NCBI RefSeq assembly: GCF_046105845.1 | Contig: NZ_CP151004.1 | Length of the DNA: 64,000 bases | Reading direction: 5' to 3' (one strand) | Source: Escherichia coli | GTDB taxonomy: Bacteria; Pseudomonadota; Gammaproteobacteria; Enterobacterales; Enterobacteriaceae | Part shown: one piece after another, positions 30,133 through 60,248 of the stretch | Numbering within the stretch: position 1 is the stretch's first letter | Layout: each line of letters opens with the position of its first letter | Program-made: the position numbers and the translations under genes | The notes under the pieces: generated by a model | What the model was told of the DNA's origin: nothing | What the model saw: only the letters and a program-made list of their open reading frames with translations | Database searches by the model: none

Positions 30133-30188
30133 TAGTTCGGATTTTACTTAACCGGGTAAATTTGCCCGGTTTTCGCATGGAGATAATT

Positions 30189-32972
30189 ATGAGAAACCTC
30201 TGTTTCTTACTGACGTTAGTGGCAACTCTGTTGCTCCCCGGGCGACTGATTGCCGCCGCCTTACCGCAGGATGAAAAGTTAATTACCGGGCAACTGGACA
30301 ATGGCTTGCGATATATGATTTATCCGCATGCTCAACCAAAGGATCAGGTAAATTTATGGCTGCAAATTCATACCGGTTCATTGCAGGAAGAGGACAATGA
30401 GCGCGGCGTGGCTCATTTTGTAGAACATATGATGTTTAACGGCACAAAAACATGGCCGGGTAATAAAGTCATCGAAACATTTGAGTCAATGGGCCTGCGT
30501 TTTGGTCGCGATGTTAATGCCTATACCAGCTATGACGAAACGGTGTATCAGGTGAGTTTGCCGACTACGCAGAAACAAAATCTGCAACAAGTGATGGCAA
30601 TCTTTAGTGAATGGAGTAATGCCGCAAGCTTTGAAAAACTCGAAGTAGACGCTGAACGCGGCGTAATTACTGAGGAATGGCGTGCCCATCAGGATGCGAA
30701 ATGGCGCACCTCTCAGGCGCGCCGCCCTTTCCTGCTGGCTAATACCCGTAATTTAGACCGTGAACCTATCGGCCTGATGGATACTGTCGCCACGGTCACA
30801 CCGGCACAATTGCGCCAATTTTATCAACGCTGGTATCAACCAAATAATATGACCTTTATCGTGGTCGGCGATATTGACAGTAAAGAAGCGCTGGCGCTGA
30901 TTAAGGATAATTTAAGTAAGCTTCCGGCTAACAAAGTAGCTGAAAATCGCGTCTGGCCGACAAAAGCCGAAAACCACCTGCGCTTTAATATCATTAATGA
31001 TAAAGAAAACCGGGTGAACGGCATCGCACTCTATTATCGCCTGCCAATGGTGCAAGTGAGCGATGAGCAAAGCTTTATCGAACAAGCTGAATGGAGCATG
31101 TTGGTTCAGCTGTTCAATCAGCGTCTGCAGGAACGCATACAGTCGGGCGAGTTGAAGACTATTTCTGGCGGCACTGCGCGCAGCGTTAAAATTGCACCCG
31201 ATTATCAGTCGCTGTTTTTCCGTGTAAATGCACGAGACGATAATATGCAGGATGCTGCGAATGCATTAATGGCAGAGTTGGCAACTATTGATCAGCATGG
31301 TTTTTCTGCTGAAGAACTCGATGATGTCAAATCTACCCGCCTCACCTGGCTGAAAAATGCGGTTGATCAGCAAGCTGAACGTGATTTACGTATGCTGACC
31401 AGTCGCCTGGCATCCAGCTCATTAAATAATACGCCGTTCTTGTCGCCGGAAGAGACATATCAACTTTCGAAACGTCTGTGGCAGCAAATTACCGTGCAAA
31501 GTCTGGCGGAAAAATGGCAGCAGTTAAGAAAGAACCAGGACGCATTTTGGGAGCAAATGGTAAACAATGAGGTTGCCGCAAAAAAAGCATTGTCTCCTGC
31601 GGCTATCCTGGCGCTGAAAAAAGAGTACGCCAACAAAAAGCTGGCGGCTTACATCTTCCCAGGCAGAAATTTATCGTTAACAGTAGACGCTGACCCACAG
31701 GCGGAAATTAGCAGCAAAGAAACGCTGGCTGAGAATCTGACATCATTAACACTTTCCAATGGTGCCAGGGTTATTCTGGCAAAATCCGCGGGTGAAGAGC
31801 AAAAGCTACAAATTACTGCCGTATCTAATAAAGGCGATTTAAGTTTCCCTGCGCAGCAAAAATCACTTATCGCGCTGGCAAATAAAGCAGTAAGCGGAAG
31901 CGGCGTTGGTGAACTCTCCTCTTCCAGCCTGAAACGCTGGAGTGCGGAAAACTCGGTAACCATGAGCAGTAAAGTCAGTGGCATGAATACGTTGCTCTCC
32001 GTTAGCGCGCGGGCTAATAACCCTGAACCTGGTTTCCAGTTGATTAACCAGCGAATCACCCACAGCACGATTAACGACAATATTTGGGCATCGCTACAAA
32101 ATGCTCAAATTCAGGCGTTGAAAACGCTCGACCAGCGTCCAGCGGAGAAATTCGCCCAGCAGATGTATGAGACGCGCTATGCTGATGACCGCACGAAATT
32201 ACTGCAAGAAAATCAGATTGCACAGTTTACTGCCGCAGATGCGCTGGCTGCCGATCGCCAGTTGTTTTCATCTCCAGCGGATATCACGTTTGTCATTGTC
32301 GGTAATGTCGCAGAAGACAAACTCGTGGCGTTAATTACGCGTTACTTAGGGTCAATCAAACACTCTGATTCGCCATTAGCCGCAGGTAAACCATTAACTC
32401 GCGCGACGGACAACGCATCGGTTACTGTAAAAGAACAAAATGAACCTGTGGTACAGGTTTCACAGTGGAAGCGTTATGATTCCCGGACACCTGTTAATCT
32501 GGCGACGCGTATGGCGCTCGATGCTTTTAACGTCGCACTGGCAAAAGATCTACGCGTTAATATTCGTGAACAGGCCTCTGGGGCATACAGCGTTTCTTCT
32601 CGCCTCTCGGTTGATCCTCAGGCCAAAGATATCAGTCATTTGCTGGCTTTTACTTGTCAACCGGAACGACATGATGAACTGTTAACGTTAGCGAATGAAG
32701 TGATGGTTAAGCGTCTGGCTAAAGGGATCAGTGAGCAAGAACTGAACGAATACCAGCAAAACGTTCAGCGCAGCCTCGATATCCAACAGCGTAGCGTTCA
32801 ACAATTAGCGAACACCATTGTAAATAGTCTTATTCAATATGACGATCCTGCAGCATGGACTGAGCAGGAGCAATTATTGAAACAAATGACGGTAGAGAAT
32901 GTTAACACTGCCGTTAAACAATATCTTTCTCATCCGGTGAATACCTATACCGGAGTATTATTGCCAAAATAA
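30189..32972 (+). CDS. pqqL: Periplasmic M16-family zinc metallopeptidase (pitrilysin-like)
   Basis: 931-aa product MRNLCFLLTLVATLLLPGRLIAA…; inverted zinc-binding motif HFVEH at approx. residue 85; matches K-12 PqqL. Confidence 0.9.
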   Translation: MRNLCFLLTLVATLLLPGRLIAAALPQDEKLITGQLDNGLRYMIYPHAQPKDQVNLWLQIHTGSLQEEDNERGVAHFVEHMMFNGTKTWPGNKVIETFESMGLRFGRDVNAYTSYDETVYQVSLPTTQKQNLQQVMAIFSEWSNAASFEKLEVDAERGVITEEWRAHQDAKWRTSQARRPFLLANTRNLDREPIGLMDTVATVTPAQLRQFYQRWYQPNNMTFIVVGDIDSKEALALIKDNLSKLPANKVAENRVWPTKAENHLRFNIINDKENRVNGIALYYRLPMVQVSDEQSFIEQAEWSMLVQLFNQRLQERIQSGELKTISGGTARSVKIAPDYQSLFFRVNARDDNMQDAANALMAELATIDQHGFSAEELDDVKSTRLTWLKNAVDQQAERDLRMLTSRLASSSLNNTPFLSPEETYQLSKRLWQQITVQSLAEKWQQLRKNQDAFWEQMVNNEVAAKKALSPAAILALKKEYANKKLAAYIFPGRNLSLTVDADPQAEISSKETLAENLTSLTLSNGARVILAKSAGEEQKLQITAVSNKGDLSFPAQQKSLIALANKAVSGSGVGELSSSSLKRWSAENSVTMSSKVSGMNTLLSVSARANNPEPGFQLINQRITHSTINDNIWASLQNAQIQALKTLDQRPAEKFAQQMYETRYADDRTKLLQENQIAQFTAADALAADRQLFSSPADITFVIVGNVAEDKLVALITRYLGSIKHSDSPLAAGKPLTRATDNASVTVKEQNEPVVQVSQWKRYDSRTPVNLATRMALDAFNVALAKDLRVNIREQASGAYSVSSRLSVDPQAKDISHLLAFTCQPERHDELLTLANEVMVKRLAKGISEQELNEYQQNVQRSLDIQQRSVQQLANTIVNSLIQYDDPAAWTEQEQLLKQMTVENVNTAVKQYLSHPVNTYTGVLLPK

Positions 32973-54559: not shown

Positions 54560-57500
54560 TTACGCCTTCTCGATGTTTACTAAGAACGCTTTATATTCCG
54601 GCGTTTGCGAGTTTGCATCACCGACATTAGGCGTCAGAGTGTTAGCGATGTAACCTTTACGCGCGACACCCTCAAAGCCCCAGTGGATTGGAATACCCAC
54701 CGTTTCAACCTGCTGACCGTTTACATTCAGCGGCTTCAGACGGCGCGTTACCACAGCCACCGCGCGGATAAAACCACGCTTGCTGGAGACAGTGACACGA
54801 TCGCCATTATTAATGCCTTTCGCCGCCGCCAGCGTTTCGCTGATTTCCACAAACTGTTCCGGCTGAGCAATTGCGTTGAGCAACGCGTGCTTGGTCCAGG
54901 TGTGGAAGTGCTCGGTCAGACGATAGGTCGTACCCACATACGGGAACTGCTCTTTTTTACCCATCCGCAGCGCGTCTTGTTCATACAGACGAACCACCGG
55001 GTTAGACACCACGTTCGGATGCAGCGGGTTAGTGCCCAGCGGCGTTTCAATCGGCTCGTAGTGTTCCGGGAACGGACCTTCCGCCATTTTGTTGATGGCA
55101 AACAGGCGTCCCATCCCTTCCGGCTGCATGATAAACGGTCCGGTTAGTGTACCTGGCGCGGCATTGCCGAAGTCCGGAATATCGTTACCCGTCCACTTGC
55201 TGCCGTTCCACTGGATCAGCATCCGTTTCGGATCCCACGGTTTACCGTTGATATCCGCCGAAGCACGGTTGTACAGCACGCGACGGTTGAGCGGCCACGC
55301 CCAGGCCCATCCCAGCGTATTCCCCAGACCGGACGGGTCGGAGTTATCGCGGTTAGCCATCTGGTTGCCCTGCTCTGTCCAGCTACCAGTGTAGATCCAG
55401 CAAGAAGATGCGGTTGTACCGTCATCACGCAGATGCGCAAAGCTACTCAGCAACTGACCTTTCTTCGCAATCAGCACGCCATTAGCATCATAGAGATCTT
55501 CCAGCGCATAGCCGTTGTTCTCTTTAGCTACTTCGTCAGATTGCGGTTCGTGCGGCTGCTTGTAGTTCCAGCTCATCTTCATCAGCGGTTCTACGCCTTT
55601 GCCACCTTCGGCCTGGTACAACTCGCGCAGATGATGGTAGATACCCGCCAGAATTTCGCCGTCGTTACGCGCTTCGCCCGGCGCGTCCTGACCTTTCCAG
55701 TGCCACTGCAACCAGCGACCGGAGTTAGCGATAGAACCATCTTCTTCAGCAAAGCAGGTCGAAGGCAGACGGAATACTTCAGTCTGAATAGACGCCGGAT
55801 CGACATCGTTCGACTCGCCGTGGTTCTGCCAGAAGGTTGAGGTTTCAGTCACCAGCGGATCGATAACCACCATGTACTTCAGTTTGCTCAGGCAGCTCAC
55901 CACTTTGTTTTTGTCCGGGAAGGACGCAACCGGGTTAAAGCCCTGGCAGAAATAACCGGTGACTTTGCCTTCGTCCATCATGTTGAAATACTTGATGACG
56001 TCGTAGGTCTGGTCCCACTTCGGCAGCCAGTCGTAGCCCCAGTTGTTTTCTTTCTGCGCGGCATCGCCATAGAAAGATTTCATCAGGCTAACGAAGAACT
56101 TCGGATAGTTGCTCCAGTAGTTCACCTGATCAGCCAGCGTCGCTTTCGGCGTATTCGCTTCCAGATACGACTGCAAATCAACCTGTTTTTCTGACGGCAG
56201 CGTCAGATAACCCGGCAGGCTGGTTGAGAGCAGACCTAAGTCGGTCAGCCCCTGAATGTTGGAGTGACCACGCAATGCGTTCACGCCGCCACCGGCCATA
56301 CCCATGTTACCGAGCAGTAACTGGATCATCGCCATAGTACGGATGTTCTGCGCACCCACGGTGTGCTGCGTCCAGCCCAGCGCGTAAAGGAAGGTGGTTG
56401 TGCGATCCGGTGCGCTGGTGGAGGCCAGCACTTCACACACTTTCAGGAAGTCGGCTTTTGGCGTACCACAGATGTTTTCTACTACGTCCGGCGTGTAGCG
56501 GGAAACGTGCTCTTTCAGCAAGTTCCACACACAGCGCGGATGAGTCAGTGTTTCATCGCGTTTCGCATAGCCGTTTTCATCGAACTGATAGTTCCAGGAC
56601 GATTTATCGTATTGACGTTTTTCAGCGTCGTAGCCGCTGAACAGACCGTCTTCGAAAGCAAAATCATCACGCACCAGCAGACTGGCGTTGGTGTAATGCT
56701 TAACGTATTCGGCGTTGATTTTGTTGTTTTCGATCAGGTAGCGCAAAACGCCAGACAGGAACGTAATGTCCGTACCGGAACGAATAGGTGCGTAAATATC
56801 CGCTACAGAAGCGGTACGCGTAAAACGGGGATCGACAACGATCAAGGTTGCATCGTTGTTGTTTTTCGCTTCCATCGCCCAGCGGAAACCGACGGGATGC
56901 GCTTCAGCAGCGTTACCACCCATCACCATTACGACGTTAGCGTTTTTGATATCCACCCAGTGGTTGGTCATCGCACCGCGACCAAATGTTGGAGCAAGAC
57001 TTGCTACCGTTGGTCCGTGTCAGACGCGCGCCTGGTTGTCTACCGCCAGCATCCCGAGGGAGCGGGCAAATTTTTGAGTCAGCATCCCGGTTTCGTTGCT
57101 GGCACCGGAGGCACACAGCATACCGGTAGAAAGCCAACGGTTTACCGTTACGCCCTGCTCGTTCTTTTCAATAAAGTTAGCGTCACGGTCAGCTTTCATC
57201 AGCTTGGCAATACGGGAGAATGCTTCATCCCAGCTAATGCGCTGCCATTTATCAGAACCTGGCGCACGATATTCCGGGTAGCGCAGACGGTTTTCGCTGT
57301 TGACGTAATCCAGCAAACCGGCCCCTTTCGGGCACAGCGCACCACGGCTTACCGGATGATCCGGGTCACCTTCAATGTGATAAATCGCTTCTCTGGCGTT
57401 TTTCGCGCCATCACCCAGGCTATACATCAATAGCCCGCAACCTACGGAACAGTATGTGCAGGTGTTACGGATCTCTTTCGCGCGTAATAATTTATAGTTT

Positions 57501-57607
57501 CGCGCCTGAGCCAGTGCTTGCTTCGGGGCAAAGCCCAATGCCGCTACCGTTGTTCCAGCCATACCGCCCGCGCAGATTTTAAAAAATTGTCTGCGACTGA
57601 CGTCCAT
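54560..57607 (-). CDS. fdnG: Formate dehydrogenase-N alpha subunit, selenoprotein (Tat signal; in-frame UGA = Sec)
   Basis: Two ORF-track pieces (57020..57607 and 54560..56971) are one 1015-codon frame interrupted only by TGA at 57020..57022 (minus strand); N-terminus MDVSRRQFFK (twin-arginine); sequence continues …VDNQARV-U-HGPTVASLAPTFGRGAMTNHW…. Confidence 0.9.
56975..57019 (-). other. Predicted SECIS region immediately 3' of the fdnG UGA codon
   Basis: mRNA 3' of UGA reads CACGGACCAACGGUAGCAAGUCUUGCUCCAACAUUUGGUCGCGG with a short AGCAAG/CUUGCU hairpin; bacterial SECIS elements lie directly downstream of the Sec codon. Exact fold not computed. Confidence 0.5.
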
Positions 57608-57671
57608 TGCTTTCCTCTTTTTTCAGGGGTATTACTGCGCGAGGAAACTAACAGCAAAATTCTGAATCTTT

Positions 57672-57685
57672 TTGCGCGAAATCAA
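57672..57685. promoter_or_regulatory. FNR-like site TTGCG-N4-ATCAA in fdnG promoter
   Basis: Close match to FNR consensus TTGAT-N4-ATCAA, about 65-80 bp upstream of fdnG start; fdnGHI is anaerobically induced. Confidence 0.5.
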
Positions 57686-57732
57686 AAAGAACACGTGTTT
57701 GCCACAAAATAATCCGCCTGCGCAAATTGACC

Positions 57733-57749
57733 TACCTCAATAGCGGTAG
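57733..57749. promoter_or_regulatory. Candidate NarL heptamer pair (TACCTCA-AT-AGCGGTAG, 7-2-7-like) upstream of fdnG
   Basis: Inverted TACYYMT-like heptamers separated by 2-3 bp; fdnG is nitrate/NarL activated. Motif match is approximate. Confidence 0.35.
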
Positions 57750-57838
57750 AAAAACGCACCGCTGCCTGACAGGCCAGTTAAAAAAATGCTATAAAATTCA
57801 GCTTAATTTTTAACGGCAAGAGAGACAAAACAGCGAGC

Positions 57839-58720
57839 ATGACACGACAAAAAGCAACGCTCATAGGGCTAATAGCGATCGTCCTGTGGAGCACGATGGT
57901 AGGATTGATTCGCGGTGTCAGTGAGGGGCTCGGCCCGGTCGGCGGCGCAGCTGCTATCTATTCATTAAGCGGGCTGCTGTTAATCTTCACGGTTGGATTT
58001 CCGCGTATTCGGCAGATCCCGAAAGGCTATTTACTCGCCGGGTGTCTGTTATTCGTCAGCTATGAAATCTGTCTGGCGCTTTCCTTAGGATATGCGGCGA
58101 CCCGTCATCAGGCGATTGAAGTGGGTATGGTGAACTATCTGTGGCCCAGCCTGACAATTCTCTTTGCCATTCTGTTTAATGGTCAGAAAACCAACTGGCT
58201 GATTGTACCAGGATTATTATTAGCCCTGGTTGGCGTCTGCTGGGTGTTAGGTGGTGACAATGGATTACATTATGATGAAATCATCAATAATATCACCACC
58301 AGCCCATTGAGTTATTTCCTGTCGTTTATTGGTGCGTTTATCTGGGCAGCCTACTGCACAGTAACGAATAAATACGCACGCGGATTTAACGGAATTACCG
58401 TTTTTGTCCTGCTAACTGGAGCAAGTCTGTGGGTTTACTATTTTCTCACGCCACAACCAGAAATGGTATTTAGCACGCCAGTCATGATTAAACTCATCTC
58501 TGCGGCATTTACCTTAGGATTTGCTTATGCTGCATGGAACGTCGGTATATTACATGGCAACGTCACCATTATGGCGGTAGGTTCGTATTTTACGCCCGTC
58601 CTTTCCTCAGCGCTTGCAGCCGTGCTGCTCAGCGCCCCGCTGTCGTTCTCGTTCTGGCAAGGCGCGCTAATGGTCTGCGGCGGTTCCCTGCTCTGCTGGC
58701 TGGCGACACGTCGTGGCTAA
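57839..58720 (+). CDS. yddG: Aromatic amino acid exporter (DMT superfamily)
   Basis: 293-aa 10-TM protein MTRQKATLIGLIAIVLWSTMVGLIRG…; matches K-12 YddG. Confidence 0.95.
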   Translation: MTRQKATLIGLIAIVLWSTMVGLIRGVSEGLGPVGGAAAIYSLSGLLLIFTVGFPRIRQIPKGYLLAGCLLFVSYEICLALSLGYAATRHQAIEVGMVNYLWPSLTILFAILFNGQKTNWLIVPGLLLALVGVCWVLGGDNGLHYDEIINNITTSPLSYFLSFIGAFIWAAYCTVTNKYARGFNGITVFVLLTGASLWVYYFLTPQPEMVFSTPVMIKLISAAFTLGFAYAAWNVGILHGNVTIMAVGSYFTPVLSSALAAVLLSAPLSFSFWQGALMVCGGSLLCWLATRRG

Positions 58721-58978
58721 AATAATTGTCGGGTCTACGGCCCGGCAGTTAATCAGATAAATTCCGACAATATAAAAAAATAAATTTCAAATACCAGTAG
58801 TTCACCTTATATTTCATTTCGACTTCGATCACATATCGATAAATAATATTATTTCATCTATTTTTCTCATTGTTTTTAATCACCATTCTATTTTAAAAAC
58901 AGTATGTCATTTATAAATGACGCCGTTTAAAATTCGTTTAGAAAATACGTTTAACGATAATTAAAAGGATTCTGTTAA

Positions 58979-60079
58979 ATGAAATTAAAAATAGTTGCGG
59001 TGGTTGTAACTGGTTTGTTAGCTGCGAACGTAGCACACGCTGCCGAAGTCTATAACAAGGATGGTAATAAACTCGACCTTTATGGCAAGGTTACCGCTCT
59101 ACGTTATTTTACTGATGATAAGCGTGACGATGGTGATAAAACTTATGCCCGTCTCGGCTTTAAAGGAGAAACGCAAATCAATGATCAAATGATTGGTTTT
59201 GGTCACTGGGAATATGATTTTAAAGGCTATAACGATGAAGCCAACGGCTCGCGCGGTAACAAGACCCGTCTGGCCTATGCAGGTTTAAAAATTAGTGAAT
59301 TTGGCTCTCTGGACTATGGTCGTAACTACGGTGTCGGCTATGACATTGGTTCATGGACCGATATGTTGCCAGAATTTGGTGGCGATACCTGGAGTCAGAA
59401 AGATGTCTTCATGACATACCGTACTACCGGTGTGGCAACCTATCGCAACTACGATTTCTTCGGCTTAATTGAAGGTCTGAACTTTGCCGCGCAATATCAA
59501 GGCAAAAATGAACGCACTGACAATGGTCATCTTTATGGTGCTGACTACACGCGTGCCAATGGTGACGGTTTCGGTATCTCCTCAACTTATGTTTATGATG
59601 GCTTTGGTATCGGTGCGGTGTATACCAAATCCGATCGGACAAATGCGCAGGAAAGAGCCGCTGCTAATCCTCTCAATGCCTCCGGTAAGAATGCAGAACT
59701 GTGGGCTACAGGTATAAAATATGATGCCAACAACATCTACTTTGCAGCTAATTACGCTGAAACATTAAACATGACCACCTATGGCGATGGTTATATCTCT
59801 AACAAAGCACAAAGTTTTGAAGTAGTGGCACAATATCAATTCGACTTCGGCTTGCGCCCATCACTCGCTTACCTGAAATCGAAAGGCAGAGATCTGGGCC
59901 GCTACGGCGACCAGGACATGATTGAGTATATCGACGTTGGTGCGACGTATTTCTTCAACAAAAATATGTCGACCTATGTTGATTATAAAATCAACCTGAT
60001 TGATGAAAGCGACTTTACCCGTGCCGTAGATATTCGCACCGATAACATCGTCGCAACGGGCATTACCTATCAGTTCTAA
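58979..60079 (+). CDS. yddL: General bacterial porin, OmpC/OmpF/PhoE family (full length, 366 aa)
   Basis: Signal peptide [21 protein letters not shown] then [17 protein letters not shown]…, ends …GITYQF (C-terminal Phe); position matches yddL, which I recall as a fragment in K-12. Confidence 0.8.
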
Positions 60080-60118: not shown

Positions 60119-60248
60119 ATTTAAGTGCTGCTGTATGACTCCTTAAGTAAAAATGAGCAATTTTTGATATTTCTGGTCATTCACCTCAATTAATATTATT
60201 CCATACCCTCCGGGGACATCTTACTATAATATTTATTGATGAGTGATT

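What the first reader, a model, noticed from the sequence alone, without database searches (positions are those of the whole stretch)
57608..57838. fdnG/yddG divergent control region with FNR and NarL-like motifs
An FNR-like TTGCG-N4-ATCAA and a 7-2-7-like heptamer pair are positioned upstream of fdnG, fitting anaerobic plus nitrate induction; the same region must also drive yddG in the opposite direction.
Basis: partly seen in the sequence, partly recalled or inferred. Interest (0 to 1): 0.25.

Follow-up and report, generated by a model that had tools for sequence, protein, structure and literature searches.

The report
Known fdnG nitrate/anaerobic promoter region
This 231-base gap between two E. 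coli genes is the already well-studied switch that turns on formate dehydrogenase-N when oxygen is absent and nitrate is present.

Summary
Window 57608-57838 is the E. coli fdnG(-)/yddG(+) intergenic region. It is 99.6-99.9% identical to complete E. coli genomes.

**Both motifs are present.**
- TTGCG-N4-ATCAA lies at 57672-57685.
- The 7-2-7 pair TACCTCA-AT-AGCGGTA lies at 57733-57748.

**Their positions fit the literature.** If the FNR site is set at its published -42.5, +1 falls on A57636, leaving a 29-nt leader. The heptamers then fall exactly on the published -100, -109, -77 and -124.

**Motif counts alone are at chance level in 64 kb.** What makes the sites real is position, published FNR ChIP peaks, and conservation in 64 orthologous regions from at least 15 Enterobacteriaceae genera:
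- Both FNR half-sites are 99-100% identical, against 41% for unassigned positions.
- A 7-2-7 sits exactly 62 bp upstream of the FNR centre in about 94% of regions.

**yddG has its own promoter.** It has a conserved extended -10 (TGCTATAA, 57787-57794). Published data show no FNR-dependent change in yddG expression.

The best FNR match in the whole window is a second site, TTGACCTACCTCAA, at 57727-57740 (-97.5).
- It overlaps the -100 NarL heptamer.
- It is found only in Escherichia.
- It lies closest to the published ChIP-seq summit.

**Verdict:** already known, low interest.

The parts
57608..57838 (.). fdnG/yddG divergent intergenic control region (231 bp)
   Evidence: ORFs. Present in 5413 of 5426 complete E. 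coli genomes at 96-99.6% identity, with no annotated feature under the match. Annotation of K-12 and 042.
57672..57685 (-). FNR site of the fdnG promoter, TTGAT-TTCG-CGCAA, centre 57678.5 = published -42.5 (class II position)
   Evidence: Sequence. Published position. TTGAT is 1.00 and CGCAA 0.99 identical in 58 non-Escherichia orthologues. PWM score 10.3 bits, rank 9 of 63,987.
57645..57653 (-). fdnG extended -10, TGtTAGTTT. There is no -35 hexamer; the FNR site takes its place.
   Evidence: Sequence. 0.95 identity across genera. Fixed 25-bp spacing from the FNR centre in 60 of 65 regions.
57636..57636 (-). Inferred fdnG transcription start (A), giving a 29-nt leader
   Evidence: Inferred by setting the FNR centre to the published -42.5. 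All four published heptamer positions then fit. The primary mapping paper was not readable.
57613..57617 (-). fdnG Shine-Dalgarno sequence, GAGGA
   Evidence: Sequence. Conserved across genera.
57733..57748 (-). NarL/NarP 7-2-7 site, TACCGCT-AT-TGAGGTA (heptamers -109 and -100, centre -104.5)
   Evidence: 2 mismatches. Published as a 7-2-7 site for fdnG. Located 62 bp from the FNR centre in 61 of 65 orthologues, and is the best or tied-best match in 60 of 64. Heptamer-profile dips fall at exactly -109 and -100.
57702..57716 (-). Conserved block containing the published -77 NarL heptamer (CGGATTA, 57710-57716). Conservation runs on to about -66.
   Evidence: A-77, T-75, A-74, T-73, T-72, G-69 and G-66 are >=95% conserved. 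(profile dip at -77; weaker dips at -76 and -67). Published position.
57757..57763 (-). The published -124 NarL heptamer position. Reads AGCGGTG here and AGTGGTG in all other Escherichia compared.
   Evidence: Position. Not conserved outside Escherichia (0.13 identity; no profile dip). Private SNP at 57761.
57727..57740 (.). Second FNR-like site, TTGAGGTAGGTCAA in fdnG orientation, centre -97.5. Overlaps the -100 NarL heptamer and is specific to Escherichia.
   Evidence: PWM rank 1 of 63,987 at 15.7 bits. Listed as the predicted site under the yddG/fdnG ChIP-seq peak in Myers 2013 Table S6. Present in 6 of 6 Escherichia-type regions and 0 of 58 others.
57787..57795 (+). Predicted yddG extended -10, TGcTATAAA. 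Predicted start near 57801-57803.
   Evidence: Sequence. TGCTATAA is 0.91 identical across genera. Found in 61 of 64 orthologues. No experimental start site was found.
57766..57771 (+). Possible yddG -35, CTGACA, 18 bp upstream of TATAAA. Seen in E. coli only.
   Evidence: Sequence. Not conserved (0.25). Missed by the promoter scan, which requires T at position 6 of the -10.
54560..57607 (-). fdnG coding sequence. Has a twin-arginine signal peptide and an in-frame TGA (selenocysteine) at 57020-57022.
   Evidence: SECIS_3 at 56967-57025.
57839..58720 (+). yddG coding sequence (EamA/DMT aromatic amino acid exporter)

Best explanation
This is the characterised control region of the E. coli fdnGHI operon, which encodes formate dehydrogenase-N. 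A separate yddG promoter sits back-to-back with it.

**fdnG promoter.** It has an extended -10 (TGtTAGTTT) and no -35. It depends on FNR bound at a deliberately weak site, TTGAT-N4-CGCAA, centred at -42.5 (class II activation under anaerobiosis). Nitrate acts through phospho-NarL bound upstream at the 7-2-7 pair (-109/-100), helped by the -77 heptamer and, in E. coli, by the -124 heptamer. Established knowledge holds that NarP can also bind the 7-2-7. Full expression needs both signals.

**yddG promoter.** yddG is read from its own extended -10 promoter about 166 bp away, and appears independent of FNR.

**Shown here:** the sequences, their relative positions, and their conservation.
**Taken from the literature:** FNR and NarL binding and their effects.
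**Inferred:** the exact +1 nucleotide, the yddG start, and the idea that the weak half-site is kept weak to enforce dependence on NarL.
For: **Identity of the locus:**

**Published architecture.** FNR at -42.5 and heptamers at -77, -100, -109 and -124 (PMC3349551). fdnG is one of the four classical 7-2-7 genes (PMC2718512). FNR and NarL give dual control (PMC11841067). All five published positions land on matching sequence once FNR is set to -42.5.

**FNR binding in vivo.**
- ChIP-seq peak at yddG/fdnG.
- ChIP-chip peak.
- The Fnr ChIP signal-to-noise is 6.2 in fermentation and 106.7 under nitrate, with fdnGHI scored as activated.

**Conservation** in 64 distinct orthologous spacers from Escherichia, Citrobacter, Salmonella, Klebsiella, Raoultella, Enterobacter, Leclercia, Lelliottia, Kosakonia, Kluyvera, Phytobacter and others:
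- TTGAT 1.00, CGCAA 0.99, fdnG -10 0.95 and yddG -10 0.91, against 0.41 for unassigned positions.
- The 7-2-7 sequence drifts but keeps the TA...TA palindrome at a fixed 62 bp.
- An unbiased heptamer profile dips at exactly -109, -100 and -77.
- The non-consensus G of CGCAA is kept in 61 of 64 regions.
Against: - The motifs are statistically unremarkable as bare consensus matches.
- The -42.5 site scores below every ChIP-positive training site.
- A published genome-wide scan picked the -97.5 site instead.
- The ChIP-seq summit (U00096.2 coordinate 1545309, about -87) is closer to the -97.5 site than to -42.5.
- The -124 heptamer is not conserved outside Escherichia.
- The primary mapping and footprinting papers could not be read, so the +1 nucleotide and the footprints rest on secondary citation.
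- The TAGTTT hexamer would sit at -14 to -9 relative to A57636, 2 bp further upstream than usual.
Confidence: 0.93

Rival explanations
1. Dual-FNR architecture in Escherichia. The strong upstream site at -97.5 (57727-57740) is a working part of the switch. Without nitrate, FNR occupies it. This blocks the overlapping NarL/NarP 7-2-7, or damps the FNR bound at -42.5, as I recall the upstream FNR site does at yfiD. Phospho-NarL then has to displace it, which sharpens the dependence on nitrate.
For: - Best FNR PWM score in the whole 64-kb window: 15.7 bits, above the training median of 14.6.
- It is the site listed under the ChIP-seq peak.
- The ChIP-seq summit is about 10 bp from it and about 44 bp from the -42.5 site.
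- It shares 7-8 bp with the 7-2-7.
- It is invariant in all 6 Escherichia-type sequences compared.
- The 55-bp centre-to-centre spacing resembles the yfiD arrangement of -40.5 and -93.5 (from memory, not checked).
Against: - It is absent from 58 of 58 non-Escherichia orthologues, which regulate with the same core.
- Its invariance within Escherichia is not significant. By my estimate about 14% chance, and half of the site is the NarL heptamer anyway.
- The FNR ChIP signal rises, not falls, with nitrate, although that signal cannot separate the two sites.
- No paper found here tests this site.
Confidence: 0.22
2. True bidirectional control. The NarL 7-2-7 lies about -61.5 from the predicted yddG start, and the -97.5 FNR site lies about -67. 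One or both also regulate yddG, so that the exporter responds to nitrate or anaerobiosis.
For: - All sites lie between the two promoters.
- The spacing from the yddG -10 to the 7-2-7 is 46 bp in 42 of 61 orthologues, although the sequence in between is not conserved.
- The E. coli -124 heptamer abuts the yddG -35.
Against: - yddG shows no FNR-dependent change in expression in two studies: glucose minimal medium without nitrate, and both fermentative and nitrate conditions.
- The spacing varies from 45 to 49 bp in 31% of orthologues, so it is not phase-locked. By contrast the 7-2-7 to FNR spacing is fixed in 61 of 65.
- About -67 is on the wrong helical face for class I FNR activation.
- No paper links yddG to NarL.
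Confidence: 0.1
3. The motifs are chance matches in an AT-rich spacer and have no regulatory role.
For: Consensus-level counts equal chance expectation.
Against: - Exact agreement with five published positions.
- Three ChIP data sets.
- Near-perfect conservation of the half-sites and fixed spacings across at least 15 genera.
Confidence: 0.01

Closest known systems
E. coli K-12 fdnGHI operon control region (Li & Stewart 1992; Li, Kustu & Stewart 1994; Darwin et al. 1996, 1997; Wang & Gunsalus 2003)
   Same: It is the same locus. The 231-bp spacer differs from K-12 MG1655 at 5 positions. None of them falls in the FNR site, the 7-2-7, the -77 heptamer or either -10 element.
   Different: There is one private SNP, 57761 G where the others have A. 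It lies inside the -124 heptamer: CACCGCT on the + strand against CACCACT. Both versions mismatch the consensus at that position.
narG operon control region (FNR at about -41.5 plus upstream NarL heptamers)
   Same: The same logic applies: a class II FNR promoter co-activated by phospho-NarL from far upstream sites. states that the regulatory pattern is essentially identical.
   Different: narG needs IHF to bring distant NarL sites (about -200) to the promoter. fdnG has its 7-2-7 at -104.5, and from memory of Rabin/Stewart work (not checked here) it does not need IHF.
yfiD-type promoters with tandem FNR sites (-40.5 and -93.5)
   Same: There are two FNR-like sites about 55 bp apart, at -42.5 and -97.5, with the stronger one upstream.
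   Different: The upstream site here overlaps a NarL 7-2-7, is restricted to Escherichia, and has no functional test. The yfiD comparison is from memory.

Membership tests
Class II FNR-activated promoter | Inverted repeat resembling TTGAT-N4-ATCAA | tested here: met
   TTGAT-TTCG-CGCAA at 57672-57685, 8 of 10 half-site bases. PWM score 10.3 bits, weak.
Class II FNR-activated promoter | Site centred near -41.5 and replacing the -35, with a -10 element at the matching distance | tested here: met
   The extended -10, TGtTAGTTT, starts 25 bp from the FNR centre in 60 of 65 orthologues. No -35 was found. The published centre is -42.5. The +1 itself is inferred.
Class II FNR-activated promoter | FNR occupies the region in vivo and activates transcription | not testable with these tools
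   From the literature only: ChIP-seq and ChIP-chip peaks, and fdnGHI scored 'Activation, Known' under nitrate.
NarL/NarP 7-2-7 binding site | Two inverted TACYYMT heptamers separated by 2 bp | tested here: met
   TACCGCT-AT-TGAGGTA, 2 mismatches out of 14. The orthologues keep the pattern with different bases.
NarL/NarP 7-2-7 binding site | Position constrained relative to the promoter it serves | tested here: met
   Located 62 bp from the FNR centre in 61 of 65 regions. Unique best match in 51 of 64 and tied best in 9. Equals the published -109/-100.
NarL/NarP 7-2-7 binding site | Bound by phospho-NarL or NarP and needed for nitrate induction | not testable with these tools
   Cited as established. 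The footprinting papers were not readable.
Sigma-70 extended -10 promoter (yddG) | TGn immediately upstream of a TATAAT-like hexamer, at a suitable distance from the gene | tested here: met
   TGcTATAAA at 57787-57795, 44 bp before the ATG. Present in 61 of 64 orthologues.
Sigma-70 extended -10 promoter (yddG) | Mapped transcription start | not tested
   No TSS data could be reached. The simple scan reported nothing, because position 6 of the hexamer is A.

The most novel reading that the evidence does not exclude
In the genus Escherichia only, a high-affinity FNR site has arisen at -97.5, on top of the promoter-proximal half of the NarL/NarP 7-2-7. FNR and NarL-P would then compete for overlapping DNA. 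The upstream FNR would hold anaerobic, nitrate-free fdnGHI expression down until NarL-P displaces it. This would be a lineage-specific tightening of an otherwise family-wide switch. The published ChIP-seq summit lies nearest this site, and no functional test of it was found.
Probability: 0.2. Interest if true: 0.35.

Novelty: already known. Interest (0 to 1): 0.1.

Why it matters
**The finding itself.** It matters little. It re-identifies a textbook promoter from sequence alone, and it shows that the first-stage reader can place regulatory sites to the base.

**What this check adds.**
- The whole core, from the yddG -10 to the fdnG -10, is a rigid module shared by at least 15 enterobacterial genera.
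- The FNR site is kept weak: the G of CGCAA is retained in 61 of 64 regions. That fits selection for dependence on NarL.
- E. coli carries an extra, stronger FNR site overlapping the NarL site. Genome-wide studies have been scoring this as 'the' fdnG FNR site, which could mislead regulon databases and motif training sets.

Tried and rejected
- **Consensus counting.** Counts of the FNR and 7-2-7 patterns in the window were at chance level, so this cannot serve as evidence.
- **Promoter and terminator scan.** It found nothing in 57500-57950. Its rules need a -35 and a T at position 6 of the -10. The FNR-dependent fdnG promoter fails the first rule and the yddG TATAAA fails the second.
- **Rfam.** No RNA family in the spacer; the mir-129 hit at E=0.5 is noise. 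Nothing above threshold in the longer fdnG leaders of Salmonella, Citrobacter, Phytobacter or E. wuhouensis.
- **Small ORFs.** Only TTG/GTG-started frames of 20-64 aa, none credible.
- **Primary papers.** Li & Stewart 1992, Wang & Gunsalus 2003, Stewart & Bledsoe 2003 and the Thomason dRNA-seq paper are not held. Positions were therefore taken from a secondary citation.
- **Literature searches.**
  - Searches for NarL, FNR or nitrate control of yddG found nothing relevant.
  - A search for the site sequences found only primer lists.
- **Motif under the Federowicz ChIP peak.** The motif is TAGCATTTTTTTAAC at window 57777-57791. The passages returned from their Table S5 (ArcA) and Table S6 (Fnr) show the same rows apart from small differences in the motif text (TAGCATTTTTTTAAC against TAGCATTTTTTTTAAAC). 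The motif resembles neither FNR consensus half-site. No match to fdnG or yddG turned up in their ArcA peak tables. I did not use it.
- **FNR control of yddG.** Considered and rated unlikely.

Full report
**What is there**

The interval 57608-57838 is the 231-bp spacer between two divergent genes.
- **fdnG** lies on the - strand with its ATG at 57607-57605. Its product starts MDVSRRQFFK..., a twin-arginine signal. The reading frame is interrupted by an in-frame TGA at 57020-57022, which is covered by an Rfam SECIS_3 match of 84 bits at 56967-57025.
- **yddG** lies on the + strand at 57839-58720 and encodes an EamA/DMT transporter.

A 901-bp query centred on the spacer matches 5413 of 5426 complete E. 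coli genomes. The best matches are 99.9% identical and are annotated fdnG and yddG. The spacer alone matches at 96.1-99.6%. The gene order in E. coli 042 and K-12 agrees.

**Checking the observation**

- The FNR-like TTGCG-CGAA-ATCAA is at 57672-57685.
- The 7-2-7 pair TACCTCA-AT-AGCGGTA is at 57733-57748.

As bare consensus matches they are not unusual.
- The 7-2-7 pattern with up to 2 mismatches occurs 7 times in the window, against 4.08 expected.
- The FNR consensus with up to 2 mismatches occurs 47 times, against 43.9 expected.

I built a position weight matrix from 62 ChIP-positive FNR sites in Myers et al. 2013 Table S6, leaving this locus out. That is rank 9 of 63,987 positions and below the weakest training site at 11.4 bits. 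The sequence alone would therefore not carry the claim.

**What makes it real: position**

A secondary source, PMC3349551, gives the published architecture: FNR at -42.5 and NarL heptamers at -77, -100, -109 and -124. Setting the FNR centre (57678.5) to -42.5 puts +1 on A57636, which leaves a 29-nt leader. The elements then fall as follows.

| Published position | Window coordinates | Sequence (fdnG orientation) |
|---|---|---|
| -109 | centre 57745 | TACCGCT |
| -100 | centre 57736 | TGAGGTA |
| -77 | 57710-57716 | CGGATTA |
| -124 | 57757-57763 | AGCGGTG |

Upstream of +1 there is an extended -10, TGtTAGTTT, at 57653-57645, and no -35. That is what a class II FNR promoter should look like.

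**What makes it real: binding data from the literature**

- FNR ChIP-seq and ChIP-chip peaks are reported at yddG/fdnG by Myers et al. 2013 and by Grainger et al. 2007.
- Federowicz et al. 2014 report a signal-to-noise of 6.2 under fermentation and 106.7 under nitrate respiration. They score fdnGHI as activated by Fnr, and report no change for yddG.
- fdnG is cited as one of the four classical 7-2-7 genes.
- It is cited as jointly controlled by FNR and NarL.

**What makes it real: phylogenetic footprinting**

A scan of one genome per species with YddG returned 80 loci. In 63 of them fdnG lies divergently upstream of yddG, with a spacer of 219-368 bp. These come from Escherichia, Citrobacter, Salmonella, Klebsiella, Raoultella, Enterobacter, Leclercia, Lelliottia, Kosakonia, Kluyvera, Phytobacter, Silvania and others. 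The yddG homologues outside the family (Burkholderia, Pseudomonas, Acinetobacter) have no fdnG upstream.

The table gives identity to the window base in the 58 distinct non-Escherichia spacers.

| Element | Identity |
|---|---|
| FNR half-site TTGAT | 1.00 |
| FNR half-site CGCAA | 0.99 |
| fdnG extended -10 | 0.95 |
| yddG TGCTATAA | 0.91 |
| Positions outside the assigned elements | 0.41 |

The 7-2-7 behaves differently: its bases drift but its form and place are kept. Examples are TACCGCTATTGAGGTA in E. coli, TAACCCGAAAGGAGTA in Enterobacter, TACTCCCTTATGGGTA in C. braakii and CACCCCTTTAGGGGTA in Phytobacter.
- At exactly 62 bp from the FNR centre, 55 of 64 spacers have 3 or fewer mismatches, against 0.11% of all other offsets.
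- That offset is the unique best match in 51 spacers and tied best in 9.

I also ran an unbiased profile of heptamer-likeness anchored on the FNR site. It dips at exactly -109 (1.58 mismatches against a background of 4.47), -100 (1.02) and -77 (2.2). It does not dip at -124, which is therefore an Escherichia feature.

**Mechanism**

- **Shown here:** the anatomy and its conservation.
- **From established knowledge:** FNR at about -41.5 or -42.5 contacts RNA polymerase as a class II activator. [quoted passage not shown] NarP binds only 7-2-7 sites.
- **Inferred:** the promoter-proximal FNR half-site is kept non-consensus. The G of CGCAA is retained in 61 of 64 spacers, and the three exceptions have CTCAA at 16 bits. 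I infer that FNR alone is insufficient and that NarL-P is needed. The 17-fold rise in Fnr ChIP signal under nitrate fits this.

**yddG**

- An extended -10, TGcTATAAA at 57787-57795, lies 44 bp before the ATG and is present in 61 of 64 orthologues.
- E. coli adds a CTGACA 18 bp upstream, at 57766-57771, which other genera lack.

The two promoters are back-to-back, about 166 bp apart, with every known fdnG site between them. I found no evidence that these sites act on yddG.
- Two fnr-deletion studies report no change in yddG.
- The yddG -10 to 7-2-7 spacing varies from 45 to 49 bp (46 bp in 42 of 61), so it is looser than the spacings on the fdnG side.

The best FNR match in the entire 64-kb window is a second site at 57727-57740. 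It reads TTGACCTACCTCAA on the + strand and TTGAGGTAGGTCAA in fdnG orientation, and scores 15.7 bits, above the training median.
- It is centred at -97.5.
- It shares 57733-57740 with the 7-2-7: the whole -100 heptamer (57733-57739) plus one spacer base.
- It, and not the -42.5 site, is the sequence that Myers et al. list under the ChIP-seq peak.
- The ChIP-seq summit converts to about -87, which is closer to this site than to -42.5.
- It is present in all 6 Escherichia-type spacers and in none of the 58 others.

Whether it works is open. Possibilities include competition with NarL or a yfiD-like damping role. I rate a functional role at about 0.2.

**Comparison and novelty**

This is the same locus as the K-12 fdnG control region. 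It differs at 5 bases, none of them in a core element. One SNP, 57761 G, is private to the window relative to every Escherichia sequence compared. It lies in the poorly conserved -124 heptamer.

The finding is already known. Interest is low.

Noticed in passing
window 57727-57740: A second FNR-like site, TTGACCTACCTCAA, centred at -97.5 from fdnG. It is the top FNR PWM score in the whole window, overlaps the -100 NarL heptamer, is confined to Escherichia, and lies nearest the published ChIP-seq summit.
   Followed up: yes
window 57761: A private SNP: G here and A in K-12, 042, O157, GMF054 and three other Escherichia species representatives. It lies inside the -124 NarL heptamer (CACCGCT against CACCACT) and is the only difference from E. 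coli 042 across the 901-bp query.
   Followed up: partly
window 57702-57716: A block conserved across genera (E. coli GGATTATTTTGTGG, others GACTATTAAGGGGG). It contains the -77 heptamer but extends about 10 bp towards the promoter. It could be a degenerate 7-2-7 centred at -71.5 (profile dips at -76 forward and -67 reverse) or an alpha-CTD contact. Unresolved.
   Followed up: partly
window 56967-57025 (-): SECIS_3 element (Rfam, 84 bits) directly downstream of the in-frame TGA of fdnG. The same element is found in Citrobacter, Salmonella, Phytobacter and Enterobacter orthologues.
   Followed up: yes
window 58979-60079 (+) and 58870-58883: An intact 366-aa Porin_1 gene lies downstream of yddG (annotated 'porin OmpC' in strain 042), where K-12 has only the yddL remnant. 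An FNR-like sequence, TTGTTTTTAATCAC (PWM rank 3 in the window, 11.1 bits), sits about 100 bp upstream of its ATG.
   Followed up: partly
window 60243-61508 and 61550-62827 (+); 60982-60995: Two leucine-rich-repeat protein genes of 421 and 425 aa, relatives of yddK/yddJ. The second-best FNR PWM match of the window, ATGACATTGATCAA at 12.6 bits, lies inside the first gene.
   Followed up: no
L009, L023, L024 and other Citrobacter/Salmonella loci; L058, L041: The fdnG leader carries an insertion between the -10 and the Shine-Dalgarno sequence: about 55 nt in Citrobacter and Salmonella, and 110-150 nt in Phytobacter diazotrophicus and Enterobacter wuhouensis. The leader length therefore ranges from about 27 to about 175 nt. 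There was no Rfam match above threshold; the only hit was a sub-threshold sX9 match in L041.
   Followed up: partly
window 32942-32957: The closest 7-2-7 match in the window, TACCTATACCGGAGTA with 1 mismatch, lies at the 3' end of a 936-aa ORF (30162-32972). It is probably a chance match.
   Followed up: no
L003, L066: Two metagenome-assembled genomes look mislabelled. L003, labelled 'Citrobacter sp.', has an E. coli-identical spacer and 100% identity to the N-terminal 195 aa of the window's FdnG. L066, labelled 'uncultured Raoultella', has a Citrobacter-type spacer.
   Followed up: no
literature: PMC3974632 Tables S5 and S6: In the passages retrieved, the supplementary tables of ArcA motifs and Fnr motifs hold near-identical rows for this locus. 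The motif listed (window 57777-57791) therefore cannot be attributed to either factor.
   Followed up: no
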